From a virus, in the UHGV virus genome UHGV-0224345: DNA of 16,502 bases; one strand, written 5' to 3'. The translations under genes and the position numbers were made by a program. This document shows, piece by piece, positions 2,282 to 16,287 of this stretch. Below the pieces are notes generated by a model, which was given only the letters and a program-made list of their open reading frames with translations, was not told the origin of the DNA and made no database searches. The first letter of the stretch is position 1, and each line of letters begins with the position of its first letter.

Positions 2282-3307
2282 TTACGCCAGTTGTACGGAA
2301 ACGAACTCATCAGGGTCAGCCAGCAGCATCAGCGGTGCTGACTGAATCATGGTGAACTCACGCGCCGGATCGCCGGTGGTCACCCAGTTTTTCGGGTAAC
2401 GGGCAGAGGCGTTAATGCCTTCGCGCTGTGCATCCGCATCCTGAATGCAGCCATAGGTGCGCAGACCGCGTGCATGAGTGTTACCCAGCACCATCGTGTT
2501 GTCCGGCAGGAAGTTCTTTTTGACGCCGTTTTCCACGTACTGTCCGGAATACACGACGATGGCCACATCGCCATACATTCCCTTATAAGACACCGCTTTG
2601 CCCAGGTCTTTTACCGCTGTCTCCAGTTCGGAATGAGAGCCGCGACGGGTATCCAGCTTCTCCCTGACGGCTTTGAAGGAACGGAACAGCGCCCAGCCTT
2701 TCGGGTCAAACACAATGATATTCACCACGCCGCTGGCGTTCAGCGCGTAGGCTTCGATATCGTCGGTCGGGTCATACGTGGACTTGTCACGCTTGCTCCA
2801 CTCCGTGCCGCCGGACTGTGTGATGTTGTTCGCCGCACTGCGGCCCATATCCACCTCAACCGGATCAAAGGCTTCACCGGTCATGGTGTATTTGCCCTTA
2901 AGCACGGCAGAAACTGCCTGCATCTCTTCGACCTGGGCAATGGCCAGCTCTTCGTCACGCATGTTCTGCATGATGATGCGACGGCGGCGGTAAGCCGGGT
3001 CCGCCAGATTCTGCGGATCTTCATCCGGCAGGCGACGCAGGGTCATCTGCGGATTCACCTCATGCTTCGGCTTGACATATCCCGGCGTAAATTCAGAGGT
3101 GGAGCCGCCACGGGAACGGATAACCTCACCGGAAACAATCGGCGAAACGTACAGCGCCATGTTTACCAGTCCCGGAATTTGTGAGAGATAGACTTTCTCC
3201 GTGGTGAAGGGATAGCTCTCACGGAAAAAGAGACGCAGAAACAGCGGATCAAACTTAAATTTCTGCTCATTTGCCGCCAGCAGCTGGGCGGTTGTGTACA
3301 TCGACAT
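2282..3307 (-). CDS. E: Major capsid protein E
   Basis: 341 aa, MSMYTTAQLLAANEQKFKFDPLFLRLFFRESYPFTTEKVYLSQIPGLVNMALYVSP...; same length and near-identical to lambda gpE. Confidence 0.97.
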   Translation of the reverse strand: MSMYTTAQLLAANEQKFKFDPLFLRLFFRESYPFTTEKVYLSQIPGLVNMALYVSPIVSGEVIRSRGGSTSEFTPGYVKPKHEVNPQMTLRRLPDEDPQNLADPAYRRRRIIMQNMRDEELAIAQVEEMQAVSAVLKGKYTMTGEAFDPVEVDMGRSAANNITQSGGTEWSKRDKSTYDPTDDIEAYALNASGVVNIIVFDPKGWALFRSFKAVREKLDTRRGSHSELETAVKDLGKAVSYKGMYGDVAIVVYSGQYVENGVKKNFLPDNTMVLGNTHARGLRTYGCIQDADAQREGINASARYPKNWVTTGDPAREFTMIQSAPLMLLADPDEFVSVQLA

Positions 3308-12343: not shown

Positions 12344-12559
12344 TTACTCTCCCCGCGCCGCCTTACGCCGGTCCTCTCTGATTTTGAAATACAGGTTAGT
12401 CAGATATGTCAGCAGCCCAAACAGCAGACTCCCCAGCACGCCTATTGCCGCCCACTGAGACGGGGAAACCCTGTCCAGCAACTGCAGGAACCAGTAGCCC
12501 GTTCCCACCGCTGACGTGGTGTATGACACACCTGTTGTGATTTTTTCCATCTGGTACAT
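12344..12559 (-). CDS. S: Class II holin (phage 21 S21-type pinholin) with dual-start motif
   Basis: 71 aa, [71 protein letters not shown]; strongly resembles phage 21 S (S2171/S2168) as I recall it. Met1 and Met4 give a holin/antiholin dual start. Confidence 0.9.
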
Positions 12560-12599
12560 ACCCCGTCTCCCGTTATCCGGAAGCTCACAACAATATAAA

Positions 12600-12623
12600 G
12601 ACCACCGGCACACACCGATGGTC
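12600..12623 (-). terminator. Strand-specific intrinsic-terminator-like hairpin about 40 nt upstream of the holin start
   Basis: Minus-strand RNA GACCAUCGG-UGUGUG-CCGGUGGUC (9 bp including one G-U, which would be a C-A mismatch on the plus strand), followed by CUUUAUAUUGUUGUG. Confidence 0.5.
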
Positions 12624-12635
12624 CCTTGCGCAGGC

Positions 12636-12881
12636 TTACATCATCATGTCGCTGTCAGGTGTGGGTTCACCGCCATCTGAAGCACTCCCGTCACCCGCGA
12701 TACCTTCCGGCTCCGGAACCGCTGGTACGCCCAGCAGCTCATCCAGAATGGCATCCACTTCTGCATCAAGACGCGACTCAAGGTTCTGGCGGAGTTTCTG
12801 TTTCAGTGCGCTCAGGACTTCTTCAGAGCGCAGGACTTCCTTCACTGCCTCAGCAGTGACCAGGGATGTGATTTCTGACAT
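12636..12881 (-). CDS. Small acidic protein of unknown function (81 aa)
   Basis: [81 protein letters not shown] from ATG at 12881. Protein-like composition, whereas overlapping plus-strand ORFs are Ser/Arg/Pro-rich. Weak ribosome-binding site. Confidence 0.55.
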
Positions 12882-12918
12882 GGGATTTTCTCGTTGAAAG
12901 GTGTTGTCAAGAAAGTGA

Positions 12919-13101
12919 CTACGGAATGAGCGGATCTTCGGGTTTGCTTCCGGCTGACTGACTGGCGCTGATTCTCTCAGCGGCCCTTTTATCAATCTGC
13001 CTGCGCCAGAAATCGCGCACTGCCCTGTACCCACCCGAAAGAAGATACATAACACAGACTGCCATACAGAAGTACAGCATTACCTGATGAATAAATGTCA
13101 T
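12919..13101 (-). CDS. Small membrane protein (60 aa), N-terminal transmembrane helix and basic C-terminal tail
   Basis: MTFIHQVMLYFCMAVCVMYLLSGGYRAVRDFWRRQIDKRAAERISASQSAGSKPEDPLIP; ATG at 13101 with a weak Shine-Dalgarno sequence. Confidence 0.4.
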   Translation of the reverse strand: MTFIHQVMLYFCMAVCVMYLLSGGYRAVRDFWRRQIDKRAAERISASQSAGSKPEDPLIP

Positions 13102-13199
13102 AATTTCTTACCGTTATGGTTGACAATGAGAACTGTTTTCATTTAGAAATGATTGATGTCGAAAGCATCTTTTCTTTACATTCTCCATTGGGATTACCT

Positions 13200-13236
13200 C
13201 CGCCAGCTTCCATTCCTGCCGCTGGCGGCTTTTTTT
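13200..13236 (+). terminator. Rho-independent terminator oriented on the plus strand, abutting the NanS-p-like stop codon
   Basis: Plus strand CCGCCAGC-(13-nt loop)-GCTGGCGG then C and seven T (13230-13236). On the minus strand the hairpin is preceded by an A-run and not followed by U. Confidence 0.6.
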
Positions 13237-13237
13237 A

Positions 13238-15214
13238 TCATGCCGCGATGTCCGCGTTGTTCACTTCCACCTTCACACTGTCAATCAGCAGCGTATATGT
13301 CGCCGCCTTTGATATGCCTGTCAGTTGCAGTTTGTCCGCCGCCCCTGATGCCGGAGATTTCACCAGTGTGAACGGCGTCCCCCGTTTCTCATCCAGTACC
13401 GGCGTCACCTGAATGCTGTTGTTTCCGGCAAACTCAAAAGCCAGTGTGTGCCATCCGTTATCAAAGACCCCGAACGTTTCCAGCTTCGCATTCGGCTTCT
13501 TGTGGTGCATCGCGTTCAGGTTCGTCGCATCCGTCTGCAGAAAGAAGGACATCAGCATGTCGTTGCCTTCCTCTGCCAGCGTCACTCCCTCCGGCAGGGA
13601 CGACAACTGCCAGTAAATGCCCAGGGCAAACTGATTCGGCACCAGTGAACCCGGCAACTTAAACCGTACGCTCACACGTCCCCCCTTCTTCAGTAACTCC
13701 ACTCCCTGTCCGGCTGCATCATGCTCCAGAAACCAGATGTGGTTTTCCGGTTTATTCAGTTGCAGGGCCTTACCTCCCGTAGCCCCCGCATCACTGACCA
13801 CCGCTTCAGCAATGTTTTTGTTAACATTGTCTCCGCTCGCCGGTTTGTGATAATAGCGCCAGCCCTGTGATGCCAGGTCTTCGCCGGACGCCAGCAGACT
13901 CATCAGGGTTCGGTTACTGACCGGGGCTTCCGGCTCTCTCTCCGTACCTTCACCGGAAGGTCCGGTGGGCTTCACCGTATCAGGCTGTTTTCCGGTAATG
14001 AATTCAGCGTTTCTCCCGGCATGCACAAGAATCGCCGTTGCCAGACGGTCGGAAATAATCCCACGACGTGCCCATGATCCAAAATGCGTTTTACGGTCGG
14101 CCGTCGTCCAGGTTTTGGCGTCCGTTCGACCACCGGCTCCGTAATACCCAATATCCGCAACATCCGGATCTTCTGACGGCTCGTTGGTACCCACATTTCG
14201 CCCGTTTTCATCCGTCATAAACGGCACAAAGAAGATTTTTTTTGCGGATTTCGTCTTGTATGCACCATACACCGCATCGTATTGCGAAGAATAAGTCTGC
14301 TTCCAGTAGTAGGTCGTGTCGCCACAAATCCAGGGAACCGATGACGGAGAGCCCCCGAGACACTGACCTCCGAATTCCGACAGGTCAGAACGATATTTTT
14401 CCACCATGGAATCAAACAGCCCCGGCTGAGTGGCGTATGCACCCTGTTTCAAATCAAACTCGCCCTGCATCCAGACCACTGCAAGCAGAATATTTTTAGG
14501 GTTGGCCTTCAGTGCGGCCTGAGTACGGGTAAGCAGGTCCTTGTACAGTGGCTTATCAACACCCCAGCGTGCCGAGGTCTCGCTTGCGCCGGTGGATTCG
14601 CTGAAGGTACCTTCATCGCCCGCCAAAAATGCAGAACCACCACGGCAGCACGGAACCAGAAGAATACCGGCATTCGCCGGAATAAACGGCAACAATTTCT
14701 TCGCGATATGTAATCCCTGCCCCACGCATCCATACTGAGCTGCGCTGGCTTTCGGGTGTGAAAACTTACTCAAATCCTGAACATCATGCAGGCAGTGGTC
14801 CGCAGGAATAATGTCATTGTAGTTACAGGACGCACCACCCGGCGTGACAGTGCTGCGACGCGCCAGCTGTTTAATACGCGGGTCCGGACGGTCATATGTC
14901 TCCGGCAGCGGAAGCCCTTCACCATACGCCATACCGTTTGACTGCCCGGCCAGGGCAACAACAAAGTAATACTCCGGGTTGCTGGTGGTGCTGATAACTG
15001 CGCCTTCTCCATCCGACGGCTTCACCACCACAGGTGTGGTGACATCACCTTCCGCCGCAATGGCCTGCATCAGGGTATAAGGCGTGATGGCCACCGGACT
15101 GCCAAATGGCTGCCACCCCTCCTTCAGTTTTTGTGTCAGTCGTTTCGCAAGGTCTGACGGCGATGCCGCCCTGACAACATCATAGTGTTTAAATGCCATG
15201 GTTCTTTCCACCAT
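13238..15214 (-). CDS. nanS-p: Prophage-encoded sialate O-acetylesterase (NanS-p-like; N-terminal DUF1737-like region plus SGNH-type esterase and C-terminal domain)
   Basis: 658 aa. MAFKHYDVVRAASPSDLAKRLTQKLKEGWQPFGSPVAITPYTLMQAIAAEGD... resembles the NanS-p / YjhS-like esterases of EHEC lambdoid prophages, which sit between the late regulatory region and S. The likely start is the second ATG at 15199 (MAFKH). Confidence 0.85.
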   Translation of the reverse strand: MVERTMAFKHYDVVRAASPSDLAKRLTQKLKEGWQPFGSPVAITPYTLMQAIAAEGDVTTPVVVKPSDGEGAVISTTSNPEYYFVVALAGQSNGMAYGEGLPLPETYDRPDPRIKQLARRSTVTPGGASCNYNDIIPADHCLHDVQDLSKFSHPKASAAQYGCVGQGLHIAKKLLPFIPANAGILLVPCCRGGSAFLAGDEGTFSESTGASETSARWGVDKPLYKDLLTRTQAALKANPKNILLAVVWMQGEFDLKQGAYATQPGLFDSMVEKYRSDLSEFGGQCLGGSPSSVPWICGDTTYYWKQTYSSQYDAVYGAYKTKSAKKIFFVPFMTDENGRNVGTNEPSEDPDVADIGYYGAGGRTDAKTWTTADRKTHFGSWARRGIISDRLATAILVHAGRNAEFITGKQPDTVKPTGPSGEGTEREPEAPVSNRTLMSLLASGEDLASQGWRYYHKPASGDNVNKNIAEAVVSDAGATGGKALQLNKPENHIWFLEHDAAGQGVELLKKGGRVSVRFKLPGSLVPNQFALGIYWQLSSLPEGVTLAEEGNDMLMSFFLQTDATNLNAMHHKKPNAKLETFGVFDNGWHTLAFEFAGNNSIQVTPVLDEKRGTPFTLVKSPASGAADKLQLTGISKAATYTLLIDSVKVEVNNADIAA

Positions 15215-15459: not shown

Positions 15460-15795
15460 ATGAAGTGGATTGTGATTGATACAGTTATCCAGCCATCATG
15501 CGGAATATCTTTTTCAGTCATATGGAGTAAAATAAAATTAATAATCTGGTATCAATCGGATGCTTTCTTACCTCCTGAAAGTATATTTACACTGACTCAC
15601 ACAGGTATCATGCTCAATAACAAAGTGCTACCTGTAACCATTTACAACGTAGCACCATTCAATAAAACATTCTGGAATTTAATCAAAAACAGCCAGGAAT
15701 GTCCTACAAATACAGATAACGTATTGAATGAATGCTTTAATAACCGTTGCACTCTGCAAATATGTCCTTATGGACTAAAACAACAAAGTCCATAA
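15460..15795 (+). CDS. Hypothetical protein (111 aa), AT-rich, Cys-containing, divergently transcribed from the NanS-p-like gene
   Basis: [111 protein letters not shown]. Good ribosome-binding site (AAGGAA 6 nt upstream). Markedly AT-rich compared with flanking phage genes. Confidence 0.55.
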
Positions 15796-15830
15796 GGAGT
15801 TTACTCACATCTGACAAAATCAATATAAAC

Positions 15831-15850
15831 AGCCCCTCCGGAGAGGGGCT
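15831..15850. terminator. GC-rich hairpin AGCCCCTC-CGGA-GAGGGGCT; U-rich tail only on the minus-strand side
   Basis: 8-bp GC-rich stem with 4-nt loop. Minus-strand RNA continues GUUUAUAUUGAUUUUGUC; plus-strand RNA continues GGAGAGUGGCGC. Confidence 0.4.
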
Positions 15851-16287
15851 GGAGAGTGGCGCTATGTGCCATTGCATGGTGCCGGGTGCCTCCCGGTGAA
15901 TTCAGTACCAGCACCTGAATCCGCGATTATCCCATATACCTACTCGCTGATTGCCCCTCCGCACAGGGGGATTCACCATGCCAGTTTCTTTTAACAAACT
16001 CCCCGCAAACCAGACAACAGTCAACCGCCTGAATTGTGAAGTATTTAAAAATTTCTCCCGCTAACTGATACCCGGCTAACAGTCTGGCGTTTTCTTTTTC
16101 AGCAACGGGAAAGCAACAACCACCACACCCGCCACCAGCACACCGTCAGCCAGCACTGACATTATCCGGCTGCTGCAATGCCACTCACAAAAACAGTAAG
16201 CAATCACTTTTTACCGTAACAAGTGATAATCCAGATATGTATCTACCCCAGATGAGTAATCCGAAGTTCATCCATACCACAGGTACT

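What the first reader, a model, noticed from the sequence alone, without database searches (positions are those of the whole stretch)
12919..13236. Small membrane-protein ORF whose leader faces a plus-strand terminator and a TTGACA box: possible antisense RNA / type-I-toxin-like arrangement
Immediately after the NanS-p-like stop (13238-13240) sits a clean intrinsic terminator readable only on the plus strand (8-bp GC stem, seven T at 13230-13236). About 80-110 bp to its left is a perfect TTGACA (13120-13125), but the best -10 candidates (TAGAAA, TTAGAA) are weak. A plus-strand transcript of 80-100 nt ending at this terminator would be antisense to the 5' leader of the minus-strand 60-aa membrane ORF, which has a weak ribosome-binding site. 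This resembles type I toxin-antitoxin or antisense-controlled small membrane proteins. No plus-strand protein gene ends here to explain the terminator.
Basis: inference. Interest (0 to 1): 0.6.

Follow-up and report, generated by a model that had tools for sequence, protein, structure and literature searches.

The report
Esr41-like prophage small RNA gene
The backwards-facing promoter box and terminator enclose an unannotated small regulatory RNA gene of about 82 nt, a relative of the known Esr41/EcOnc32 RNAs, lying between the sialic-acid esterase and the lysis genes of an E. coli prophage; it is a new copy of a known kind, not a demonstrable toxin-antitoxin pair.

Summary
TTGACA (13120-13125), a weak -10 (TAGAAA, 13144-13149) and a plus-strand-only intrinsic terminator (stem 13200-13207/13221-13228, T7 13230-13236, -15.1 kcal/mol) lie in the 137-nt spacer between the NanS-p stop and the 60-aa ORF.

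The ORF is a real late-operon gene: Pfam DUF1378, one N-terminal TM helix, pN/pS 0.23.

The promoter-to-terminator unit is a homologue of Esr41 (Rfam RF02676). A covariance model built only from DUF1378-linked variants finds Esr41 at E=4.7e-7 and EcOnc32 of prophage Sp3 at E=2e-4. Homology to Esr41 begins at the -35 box and ends at the T-run.

EcOnc32 and its EPEC copy occupy the same antisense slot before a lysis cassette. Published data show them expressed, Hfq-bound and paired to the entC ribosome-binding site.

Across 41 variants the -35 box, the stem arms, the T-run and the motif UUCUCCAU are conserved, while loops and 5' parts drift.

My reading: an Hfq-type, mainly trans-acting sRNA gene, present but unannotated in 964 of 5,426 complete E. 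coli genomes.

The type I toxin-antitoxin reading is not supported. Relatives of the RNA occur without DUF1378, the RNA does not cover its SD or AUG, and no promoter for DUF1378 was found.

A cis role on late or lysis mRNA remains possible.

The parts
13120..13125 (+). -35 hexamer TTGACA of the sRNA promoter
   Evidence: Read directly. Kept in 39 of 40 full-length spacer variants, one of which has TTGACT. Also present in Esr41, EcOnc32, PasA, PasC and EcOnc52. Homology to Esr41 starts exactly here.
13144..13149 (+). Weak -10 candidate TAGAAA (18-nt spacer; alternatively TTAGAA at 13143-13148 with a 17-nt spacer)
   Evidence: Read and not called by the consensus scan. PasA, which is experimentally expressed, has the same kind of box: TTGACA-N18-CAGAAA, placed correctly relative to its mapped 5' end. 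This region varies among variants, with a pairwise difference of 0.22-0.27.
13155..13236 (+). Predicted 82-nt sRNA, an Esr41 family member (the start at G13155 is inferred, the 3' end is the U-run)
   Evidence: Rfam Esr41 matches full length (1-74/74) at 20.7 bits, E=0.046. Model R1 gives 109.5 bits here, 34.1 bits (E=4.7e-7) on Esr41 and 21.5 bits (E=2e-4) on EcOnc32. Identity to Esr41 is 69%, z = 7.7.
13155..13169 (+). 5'-terminal hairpin GAUGU[CGAAA]GCAUC
   Evidence: Found in both the MFE and centroid folds. Esr41 has an equivalent 5' hairpin, GAUGCU[CUA]GGCAUC, as do L063 and L073 with different sequences. No consensus helix was recovered by RNAalifold.
13181..13188 (+). Invariant single-stranded motif TTCTCCAT (UUCUCCAU), the likely seed, complementary to an SD plus AUG
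   Evidence: Invariant columns in alignment A1. Present in Esr41, and as UUCUCCAC in EcOnc32. The EcOnc32 motif pairs with the entC SD/AUG at the site recovered by RIL-seq.
13200..13236 (+). Rho-independent terminator: 8-bp stem, 13-nt loop, C, then U7
   Evidence: One compensatory C-G to U-A change occurs, with a U.G intermediate that is a valid pair only on this strand.
13102..13237 (-). Spacer of the late mRNA between NanS-p and DUF1378; 13155-13236 of it is fully complementary to the sRNA
   Evidence: This is direct geometry. The spacer contains a non-conserved mini-ORF, 13191->13117.
12919..13101 (-). DUF1378 gene: 60 aa, with an N-terminal TM helix and a basic tail
   Evidence: PF07125 matches 1-59/59 at E=1.6e-35. 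PHROG 494, function unknown. Variable sites by codon position are 7/7/23, pN/pS is 0.23, and Kyte-Doolittle hydropathy is 1.96 over residues 3-21. Found only in E. coli and Shigella, at 72% identity or more.
13238..15214 (-). NanS-p-type sialate O-acetylesterase gene; its stop codon abuts the sRNA terminator
   Evidence: RefSeq annotates it as a SASA family carbohydrate esterase.

Best explanation
Window 13120-13236 (+) is a self-contained small-RNA gene with a sigma-70-type promoter (perfect -35, poor -10), an RNA of about 82 nt and a Rho-independent terminator. It is inserted backwards in the spacer between the sialate esterase gene and the DUF1378-DUF826-pinholin-endolysin block of a lambdoid E. 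coli prophage.

It belongs to the Esr41/EcOnc32 family of prophage-borne, Hfq-dependent sRNAs.

Most likely mode of action, by inference from relatives. The RNA is made from the repressed prophage. It binds Hfq through its U7 tail and U-rich body. It uses the single-stranded motif UUCUCCAU to pair with SD/start regions of host mRNAs and repress their translation. This has been shown for Esr41 on chuA, cirA and bfr, and is indicated for the EcOnc32-type RNA on entC.

Its terminator faces against the late operon, so it does not stop late transcription. Its perfect complementarity to the late-mRNA spacer follows from its position and may add a secondary cis effect.

Shown here: the sequence features, the homology and the conservation pattern. 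Inferred: expression of this particular copy, its 5' end, Hfq binding and its targets.
For: 1. Homology in both directions.
- Rfam Esr41 aligns full length at 20.7 bits, E=0.046.
- Model R1 was built from 24 DUF1378-linked variants and contains no Esr41. It hits the Sakai Esr41 gene at 34.1 bits, E=4.7e-7.
- R1 hits EcOnc32 in Sp3 and its copy in PP4 at 21.5 bits, E=2e-4.
- Rfam Esr41 also hits EcOnc32 at 32.3 bits.
- The window RNA is 69% identical to Esr41 (z = 7.7). The DUF1378-linked variant L063 is 80% identical to EcOnc32 (z = 11.8).

2. Unit boundaries. Similarity to Esr41 starts at TTGACA and ends at the T-run, and the flanks are unrelated.

3. Experimental support for relatives in the same slot and orientation.
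- EcOnc32 gave an Hfq-CRAC peak in 5 of 5 data sets and a Northern band of about 112 nt (PMC4104026 Table S2).
- The EPEC copy is labelled as the CDS E2348C_1013. Its RNA-seq baseMean is 2064, and it falls 2.9 log2 in the hfq deletion (padj 1e-23).
- In RIL-seq it is always RNA2 in its chimeras. It forms 263 chimeras with the entC 5'UTR (p = 4e-165) (PMC8550237 supplements).
- Esr41 represses chuA, cirA and bfr at their ribosome-binding sites, confirmed by compensatory mutations (PMC5286369; PMC8065619).

4. Conservation pattern (pairwise differences).
- Conserved: -35 box 0.00-0.01, stem arms 0.02-0.03, T-run 0.02-0.04.
- Drifting: loop 0.14-0.31 and 5' part 0.15-0.28.
- For comparison, pS in DUF1378 is 0.167.
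- UUCUCCAU is invariant.
- The stem shows a C-G to U.G to U-A path that is tolerable only on the plus strand.

5. Shared fold plan: a 5' hairpin, a single-stranded seed and a terminator.

6. The weak -10 is not disqualifying. PasA is abundant in vivo and has TTGACA-N18-CAGAAA placed correctly relative to its mapped 5' end.

7. No plus-strand protein gene could own the terminator.
Against: - There are no expression data for this copy.
- The closest published relative in sequence is the Sp5 (VT2-Sakai) copy, which is 81% identical over the RNA. It gave no peak among the 63 Hfq-CRAC candidates of Tree et al. 2014.
- The -10 lacks the conserved T at its last position, and the consensus promoter scan does not call the site.
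- The Rfam score is far below the Esr41 gathering threshold (20.7 against 102 bits).
- Only one stem pair covaries.
- Predicted pairing of the window RNA with the entC initiation region is only marginal: -16.8 kcal/mol, reached by 5.8% of shuffles.
- Pairing with chuA, cirA and bfr was not tested.
- DUF1378 genes always have some antisense unit upstream, even when its body is unrelated. This also fits a cis function.
Confidence: 0.68

Rival explanations
1. A cis-acting guard of the lysis cassette. The convergent sRNA gene exists mainly to act on the late transcript it overlaps. It could work by RNase III cleavage of the 82-bp duplex, or by promoter/RNA polymerase collision. Either would damp leaky read-through from pR' into DUF1378, the holin and the endolysin in lysogens, or tune lysis timing after induction. 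Any trans targets would be secondary.
For: - Every esterase/lysis junction examined carries an antisense unit with its terminator facing the late operon, even when the RNA bodies are unrelated. Examples are the window type, the L056 type, L091, L095, PasA, PasC, EcOnc52 and EcOnc32.
- Some loci carry two units in tandem.
- PasA RIL-seq partners include the 3' end of the neighbouring esterase mRNA.
- A cis-antisense RNA is complementary whatever its sequence, which would explain body turnover at a fixed position.
Against: - Esr41 keeps the whole unit in SpLE1, where there is no late operon.
- The seed motif is invariant across contexts, which cis pairing does not require.
- Relatives have verified trans targets.
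- Phage lambda has no such unit (my own knowledge, not tested here).
- The duplex lies 54 nt or more upstream of the next start codon.
Confidence: 0.16
2. A type I toxin-antitoxin-like pair. DUF1378 would be a membrane-damaging toxin whose synthesis is held in check by the divergently transcribed antisense RNA pairing with its leader. This would resemble tisB/istR-1 or zorO/orzO.
For: - DUF1378 is 60 aa with one hydrophobic helix and a basic tail.
- Its SD is weak.
- An antisense RNA gene lies 19 nt from its AUG and is complementary to its leader.
- All 80 viral loci and three more distant loci with DUF1378 have an antisense unit upstream.
- Known type I antitoxins can pair far upstream of the SD (my own knowledge of tisB/istR-1).
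Against: - No promoter for DUF1378 was found on the minus strand. The gene is embedded in the Q-dependent late operon immediately before the holin. It would therefore be made when the cell is to be lysed anyway.
- The RNA does not cover the SD or AUG.
- The RNA family exists without DUF1378, and similar sRNAs precede holins directly.
- DUF1378 matches no toxin or defence family in NCBIfam or PADLOC, and nothing in the PDB.
- The tight linkage is trivially explained by the 19-nt distance between the two.
Confidence: 0.05
3. No RNA of function. The hairpin plus T-run would be an orientation-specific insulator or an mRNA 3'-end stabiliser for the esterase message, or a relic of a decayed sRNA gene. 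The TTGACA box with its poor -10 would not fire.
For: - The -10 is weak and variable.
- There was no CRAC peak at the Sp5 copy.
- The hairpin also forms in the late mRNA just after the esterase stop, at -18.2 kcal/mol.
Against: - TTGACA and UUCUCCAU are conserved far better than synonymous sites.
- The U.G intermediate is valid only on the plus strand.
- Relatives with equally poor -10 boxes are abundantly expressed.
- The whole promoter-to-terminator unit is what has been transplanted to SpLE1.
Confidence: 0.11

Closest known systems
Esr41 (Rfam RF02676; EcOnc14), an Hfq-dependent sRNA of EHEC O157 island SpLE1
   Same: - TTGACA -35 box.
- 5' hairpin starting GAUG.
- Single-stranded ACAUU(UU)CUCCAU(G/U)GGG.
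- CCUCCGCC(A/G)GC...GCUGGCG terminator followed by U7.
- 69% identity.
- Significant match with a reciprocal covariance model.
   Different: - Esr41 has a good -10 (TATATA), a shorter body (72 against 82 nt) and a different loop.
- It sits in a non-phage island next to iha, not antisense in a late operon.
- The window RNA scores 20.7 bits against a gathering threshold of 102.
- The Esr41 targets (chuA, cirA, bfr, ler/fliC effects) are untested for the window RNA.
EcOnc32 (Tree et al. 2014), the RNA annotated as CDS E2348C_1013 in EPEC
   Same: - Same slot and orientation: antisense, immediately upstream of a class II holin lysis cassette in lambdoid prophages Sp3 and PP4.
- Same promoter box, the UUCUCCA(C/U) motif, GCCAGCG/CGCTGGC arms and a U-run.
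- 80% identical to the DUF1378-linked variant L063.
- Expressed and Hfq-dependent.
   Different: - Only 59% identical to the window RNA, with a longer loop.
- No esterase and no DUF1378 in those loci.
- The Northern size of about 112 nt is larger than the roughly 90-nt unit I delimit.
PasA / PasC (EPEC) and EcOnc51 / EcOnc52 (EHEC)
   Same: - Same position: between the SASA esterase stop and the lysis genes.
- Same antisense orientation.
- TTGACA-N18-(C/T)AGAAA promoter type.
- About 80 nt long.
- GCCAGC/GCTGGC terminator abutting the esterase stop.
- Hfq-dependent (Zhu et al. 2026).
   Different: - The bodies are not demonstrably homologous: R1 gives 8-13 bits (E 0.1-2) and alignment z is 3-4.
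- The reported PasA seed lies in the terminator arm.
- No DUF1378 in those loci.
Type I toxin-antitoxin systems with a divergent antitoxin RNA (tisB/istR-1, zorO/orzO, shoB/ohsC)
   Same: - A small single-helix membrane protein.
- A neighbouring, oppositely oriented RNA of about 80 nt complementary to its leader upstream of the SD. This comparison rests on my own knowledge of those systems.
   Different: - The putative toxin has no detected promoter and is a late-operon gene.
- The RNA family is found without it.
- There is no sequence relation to any known toxin family.
Phage lambda OOP RNA (77-nt cis-antisense RNA)
   Same: A short, constitutively promoted, intrinsically terminated RNA encoded antisense within a lambdoid phage operon (my own knowledge).
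   Different: - OOP overlaps the 3' end of the cII coding sequence and acts through RNase III on that mRNA.
- The window RNA overlaps only an intergenic spacer.
- The window RNA's relatives act in trans.
AgvB / AsxR anti-sRNAs
   Same: Prophage-borne, Hfq-bound RNAs oriented against the late operon in the moron region. Family members share conserved 3' ends and have variable 5' parts.
   Different: - They lie upstream of the esterase, 3' of stx.
- They are 51-60 nt long.
- They sponge the core sRNAs GcvB and FnrS.
- No Rfam match to them was found here.

Membership tests
Esr41 family (RF02676) | Match to the Rfam covariance model at or above its gathering score (102 bits) | tested here: not met
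   20.7 bits, E = 0.046-0.11, although the match is full length (1-74/74). EcOnc32 also falls below the threshold at 32.3 bits. From the 102-bit cut-off I infer that the Rfam seed alignment is narrow.
Esr41 family (RF02676) | Detectable homology by an independent model that does not contain Esr41 | tested here: met
   R1 was built from 24 DUF1378-linked variants. It hits Esr41 at 34.1 bits (E=4.7e-7) and EcOnc32 at 21.5 bits (E=2e-4). Pairwise z is 7.7.
Esr41 family (RF02676) | Architecture: own promoter, 5' hairpin, single-stranded UUCUCCAU region, and Rho-independent terminator with a long U-tail | tested here: met
   The -10 is weaker than in Esr41.
Esr41 family (RF02676) | Expression as an RNA of about 70-110 nt that binds Hfq and depends on it for stability | not testable with these tools
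   Shown in the literature for Esr41, EcOnc32 and E2348C_1013. Not shown for this copy. The Sp5 copy is absent from the CRAC list.
Esr41 family (RF02676) | Repression of targets by pairing at the ribosome-binding site (chuA, cirA, bfr; entC for the EcOnc32 type) | tested here: inconclusive
   For the entC initiation region, the window RNA gives -16.8 kcal/mol, reached by 5.8% of shuffles. The EcOnc32 type gives -19.2 kcal/mol, reached by 2.6%. chuA, cirA and bfr were not fetched.
PasA/PasC (EcOnc51/52) | Sequence homology of the RNA body | tested here: not met
   R1 gives 8-13 bits, E 0.1-2, driven by the terminator. Global alignment z is 3-4.
PasA/PasC (EcOnc51/52) | Location between the sialate esterase and the holin/lysozyme genes, antisense, with the terminator next to the esterase stop | tested here: met
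   Compare with the window.
Type I toxin-antitoxin | Small hydrophobic protein that is toxic when expressed | not testable with these tools
   A TM helix is present. Toxicity is unknown. No match to toxin or defence families.
Type I toxin-antitoxin | Toxin mRNA made from its own promoter, independently of a phage late operon | tested here: not met
   No promoter-like site on the minus strand between 12000 and 14500. The gene order is that of the late operon. This is a consensus scan only, so it is a weak test.
Type I toxin-antitoxin | Antitoxin RNA pairs with the toxin mRNA so as to block its translation or trigger its decay | tested here: inconclusive
   Perfect complementarity to 13155-13236 of the leader, but none to the SD or AUG. 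No extra pairing of the RNA body to the DUF1378 initiation region above background.
Type I toxin-antitoxin | Toxin and antitoxin co-occur as a unit | tested here: inconclusive
   DUF1378 always has an antisense unit upstream: 80 of 80 viral loci plus L091 and L095. However, the RNA family occurs without DUF1378, and the two are only 19 nt apart.

The most novel reading that the evidence does not exclude
The junction in front of lambdoid lysis cassettes is an obligatory slot for a convergent sRNA gene whose body is interchangeable. Its common function would be in cis. The antisense promoter and RNA would guard the lysogen against leaky late transcription into DUF1378, the holin and the endolysin, or set lysis timing. 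The trans targets of Esr41 and the Pas RNAs would be later acquisitions. In that reading DUF1378 plus its antisense RNA would behave as a toxin/antitoxin-like safety pair.
Probability: 0.15. Interest if true: 0.6.

Novelty: new member of a known kind. Interest (0 to 1): 0.35.

Why it matters
Esr41 is described in the literature as an EHEC-specific island sRNA. These results place it, together with EcOnc32, in a wider family whose home is the esterase/lysis-cassette junction of lambdoid prophages.

The window's version is present in 964 of 5,426 complete E. coli genomes, with a median of 2 and up to 7 copies. These include extraintestinal and avian isolates. No record listed for that search annotates an RNA gene at the site.

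If these copies are expressed, many non-EHEC strains carry Esr41-like regulators. Such regulators could reach iron-uptake and other host genes.

The fixed position and orientation of unrelated sRNA bodies at this junction is unexplained. It is open to direct testing.

Tried and rejected
- AsxR/AgvB identity. Rejected: those genes lie upstream of the esterase, and there is no Rfam match here.
- Membership of PasA/PasC. Position and architecture fit, but homology could not be shown.
- A conserved late-strand peptide. The mini-ORF at 13191->13117 has a GGAGG SD, but its length varies from 4 to 25 aa with frame changes. Rejected as a conserved protein.
- A convergent plus-strand protein gene owning the terminator. 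None exists. The plus-strand ORFs nearby have no Pfam family and are shadows of minus-strand genes.
- Trans pairing of the RNA body with the initiation regions of NanS-p, DUF1378, DUF826, the holin, DUF1327 or the lysozyme. None is better than background.
- DUF1378 as a known toxin or defence protein. No match in NCBIfam, PADLOC or the PDB.
- GTDB genome scan for DUF1378. It found nothing. This is consistent with a family restricted to E. coli and Shigella prophages.
- A literature search for published Esr41 homologues in Stx phages found none. The only related statement is the remark of Zhu et al. 2026 that Esr41 hits lie near PasD.
- TTGACA alone as evidence. It is not above chance.
Full report
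**Setting**

The window is the late region of a lambdoid E. coli prophage, with the late operon on the minus strand.
- An STnc100-type pR'-proximal RNA lies at 16010->15821.
- A NanS-p-type esterase runs 15214->13238 (Pfam SASA, DUF1737, DUF6645).
- The 60-aa ORF at 13101->12919 is a full-length DUF1378 (PF07125, E=1.6e-35).
- It is followed by DUF826, a P21-type class II holin, DUF1327, a phage lysozyme and Rz.
- Identical DNA occurs in many RefSeq genomes with this same annotation and no RNA feature.
- Stx phages such as VT2-Sakai are about 84% identical over this stretch.

**Checking the observation**

- The hairpin CCGCCAGC/GCTGGCGG has 8 bp and a 13-nt loop, followed by C and U7. It folds at -15.1 kcal/mol, and none of 200 shuffles does as well.
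- On the late strand the same hairpin has A7 before it and no U-run after it, so it reads as a terminator on the plus strand only.
- TTGACA at 13120-13125 is not above chance as a hexamer: 6 copies found, 9.9 expected.
- The -10 candidates are poor, and the consensus scan does not call a promoter.
- No plus-strand protein gene ends here.

**Evidence from related sequences**

I fetched 80 viral contigs encoding DUF1378. They gave 41 distinct versions of the spacer.
- TTGACA is present in 39 of the 40 full-length versions; one has TTGACT.
- The stem arms and the T-run are almost invariant. Pairwise differences are 0.00-0.04.
- The loop differs by 0.14-0.31 and the 5' part of the putative RNA by 0.15-0.28.
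- For comparison, the synonymous divergence of the adjacent DUF1378 gene is 0.167.
- One stem pair changes C-G to U-A through a U.G intermediate. That intermediate is a legal pair only on the plus strand.
- An eight-base motif, TTCTCCAT (13181-13188), is invariant.
- The unit persists when the gene on the far side is not the esterase.

This is the signature of a promoter, a functional RNA segment and a terminator. In short, it looks like a small gene.

**Identity**

- At a relaxed threshold, Rfam aligns the region full length to Esr41 (RF02676). The score is 20.7 bits, E=0.046, far below the 102-bit gathering score.
- I ran the reverse test with a covariance model (R1) built from 24 DUF1378-linked variants only.
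- R1 finds the Sakai Esr41 gene at 34.1 bits, E=4.7e-7.
- The aligned core is ACAUU(UU)CUCCAU(G/U)GGG(U)AUU(C/A)CCUCCGCC(A/G)GC...GCUGGCG-U7. Overall identity is 69% (z = 7.7).
- Similarity begins at the -35 hexamer and ends at the T-run. The flanks are unrelated, and the Esr41 locus has no DUF1378.
- R1 also finds a unit in Sakai prophage Sp3 and EPEC prophage PP4 at 21.5 bits, E=2e-4. It lies antisense between the PasD/EcOnc13 RNA and the holin. Rfam Esr41 scores 32.3 bits there.
- Its coordinates coincide with EcOnc32 of Tree et al. 2014. EcOnc32 gave Hfq-CRAC peaks in 5 of 5 data sets, has a predicted Rho-independent terminator, and gave a Northern band of about 112 nt.
- In EPEC the same RNA is hidden under the CDS label E2348C_1013. 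It is abundant (baseMean 2064) and falls 2.9 log2 in the hfq deletion.
- In RIL-seq it is always the second RNA of its chimeras. It forms 263 chimeras with the entC 5'UTR.
- One DUF1378-linked variant, L063, is 80% identical to EcOnc32. This links the two contexts.

**Relation to the Pas RNAs**

- PasA, PasC, EcOnc51 and EcOnc52 occupy the same place: just 3' of the esterase stop, antisense, about 80 nt long.
- They have TTGACA-N18-(C/G)A(G/A)AAA promoters and GCCAGC/GCTGGC terminators.
- Zhu, Shabalina and Storz 2026 describe an esterase-PasA-holin-lysozyme arrangement and note Esr41 hits near PasD.
- Homology of the RNA bodies to the window RNA could not be shown: 8-13 bits, z 3-4.
- I therefore treat them as positional and architectural analogues. 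They possibly share the promoter and terminator shell (inference).
- PasA has an equally poor -10 and is highly expressed. The weak -10 of the window unit is therefore not strong evidence against expression.

**Structure and likely mechanism**

- Started at G13155, the RNA folds into three parts. These are a 5' hairpin (GAUGU[CGAAA]GCAUC), a single-stranded U-rich stretch carrying UUCUCCAU, and the terminator.
- Esr41, L063 and L073 follow the same plan with different hairpin sequences.
- Esr41 represses chuA, cirA and bfr by pairing at their ribosome-binding sites.
- The EcOnc32-type RNA pairs AUAUCAUUUCUCCAC with the entC SD/AUG at the RIL-seq site: -19.2 kcal/mol, reached by 2.6% of shuffles.
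- The window RNA gives -16.8 kcal/mol there, reached by 5.8% of shuffles, which is only suggestive.
- I therefore commit to an Hfq-type, mainly trans-acting sRNA made from the repressed prophage. Expression of this copy, its 5' end, Hfq binding and its targets are inferred.

**The toxin-antitoxin idea**

DUF1378 is a genuine coding gene.
- Variable sites by codon position are 7/7/23, and pN/pS is 0.23.
- It has one N-terminal TM helix and a basic tail.
- It is restricted to E. coli and Shigella prophages at 72% identity or more. Its function is unknown.

- The geometry resembles tisB/istR-1 or zorO/orzO (my own knowledge of those systems).
- Every DUF1378 gene examined has an antisense unit upstream. 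This includes distant loci whose units have unrelated bodies (L091, L095 and the L056 type).

Points against it:
- No promoter for DUF1378 was found.
- It is a late-operon gene next to the holin.
- The RNA stops 54 nt before its AUG.
- The RNA family lives without DUF1378 in SpLE1, Sp3 and PP4.
- The invariant seed is not needed for cis pairing.
- DUF1378 matches no toxin or defence family.
- A 19-nt separation makes co-inheritance automatic.

I rate this reading at about 5%. A broader cis role on the late mRNA or the lysis cassette gets about 16%.

**Distribution and novelty**

- The 125-bp unit is found in 964 of 5,426 complete E. coli genomes, with a median of 2 and up to 7 copies. No record listed for that search shows an RNA annotation at the site.
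- Among the 80 viral loci, 72 carry the Esr41-like body. The other 8 carry another body inside the same promoter/terminator shell.
- This is a new member, or sub-family, of a known kind. The added points are the link from Esr41 to a lysis-cassette-associated prophage family, and the constancy of the slot.

Noticed in passing
window 15821-16010 (-): A full-length STnc100 (RF02076) match at 132 bits, E=1.8e-29. This is the pR'-proximal PasD/StxS-type RNA upstream of the esterase.
   Followed up: partly
window 15460-15795 (+): A 111-aa ORF on the antisense strand between the pR' RNA and NanS-p. An identical RefSeq prophage annotates it as anti-adapter protein IraM. It has no Pfam hit. It looks like a moron gene expressed against the late operon.
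   Followed up: partly
window 13117-13191 (-): A late-strand mini-ORF of 24 aa, MENVKKRCFRHQSFLNENSSHCQP, with a GGAGG SD. It ends 12 nt before the DUF1378 AUG. Its start, ATGGAGAA, is the complement of the sRNA motif. Its length varies from 4 to 25 aa among variants, so it is not a conserved peptide. It could still be translated.
   Followed up: yes
window 12636-13055 (-): A 139-aa GTG ORF overlaps DUF1378 out of frame and runs into DUF826. It corresponds to orf43 of VT2-Sakai and to PHROG 8301. It looks like an annotation artefact.
   Followed up: partly
window 12597-12626 (-): A 13-bp hairpin with a T-rich tail on the late strand, just 5' of and overlapping the alternative GTG start (12613) of the holin, whose ATG is at 12559. 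It may be a dual-start control structure like those of other holins. Not examined further.
   Followed up: no
L091 1385-1500 and L095 1354-1500 (minus strand of each locus): More distant DUF1378 loci (72-77% identity) have spacers unrelated in sequence. Each again has an antisense-only terminator abutting the esterase stop and a -35-like box (TTGCAT or TTGAAA). Neither has any Rfam hit.
   Followed up: partly
L050, L051, L053, L055-L057, L059, L074 (about 2290-2450, minus strand): Eight DUF1378 loci keep TTGACA and the CCGCCAGC/GCTGGCGG arms. Between them lies a different body of about 100 nt without UUCUCCAU and with a 39-nt loop. This looks like a body swap inside the same shell.
   Followed up: partly
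L001 2368-2640 (-) and L005 1420-1690 (+): EPEC PP2 and Sakai Sp12 carry two tandem antisense units, a PasA type and an EcOnc52 type. This explains the 236-nt minor PasA form, which ends at the esterase stop.
   Followed up: partly
L001 2734-2763 (+), L002 2545-2574 (+), L005 1288-1317 (-): A terminator-like hairpin on the late strand, CCGTCAGTG..CACTGGCGG followed by T6, lies just upstream of the class II holin in PP2, PP5 and Sp12. It faces the antisense sRNA units.
   Followed up: no
L088 801-1199 (-) = E2348C_1013 / E2348C_RS28255; L089 767-1165 (-) = ECs_0817: These annotated hypothetical proteins overlap the EcOnc32-type sRNA, and on the other strand the PasD RNA. [quoted passage not shown] The CDS calls are therefore doubtful.
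   Followed up: partly
window 12905-12910 (-): A second perfect TTGACA lies on the late strand in the DUF1378-DUF826 spacer. It has no acceptable -10 at 16-18 nt and is not conserved in VT2-Sakai.
   Followed up: partly
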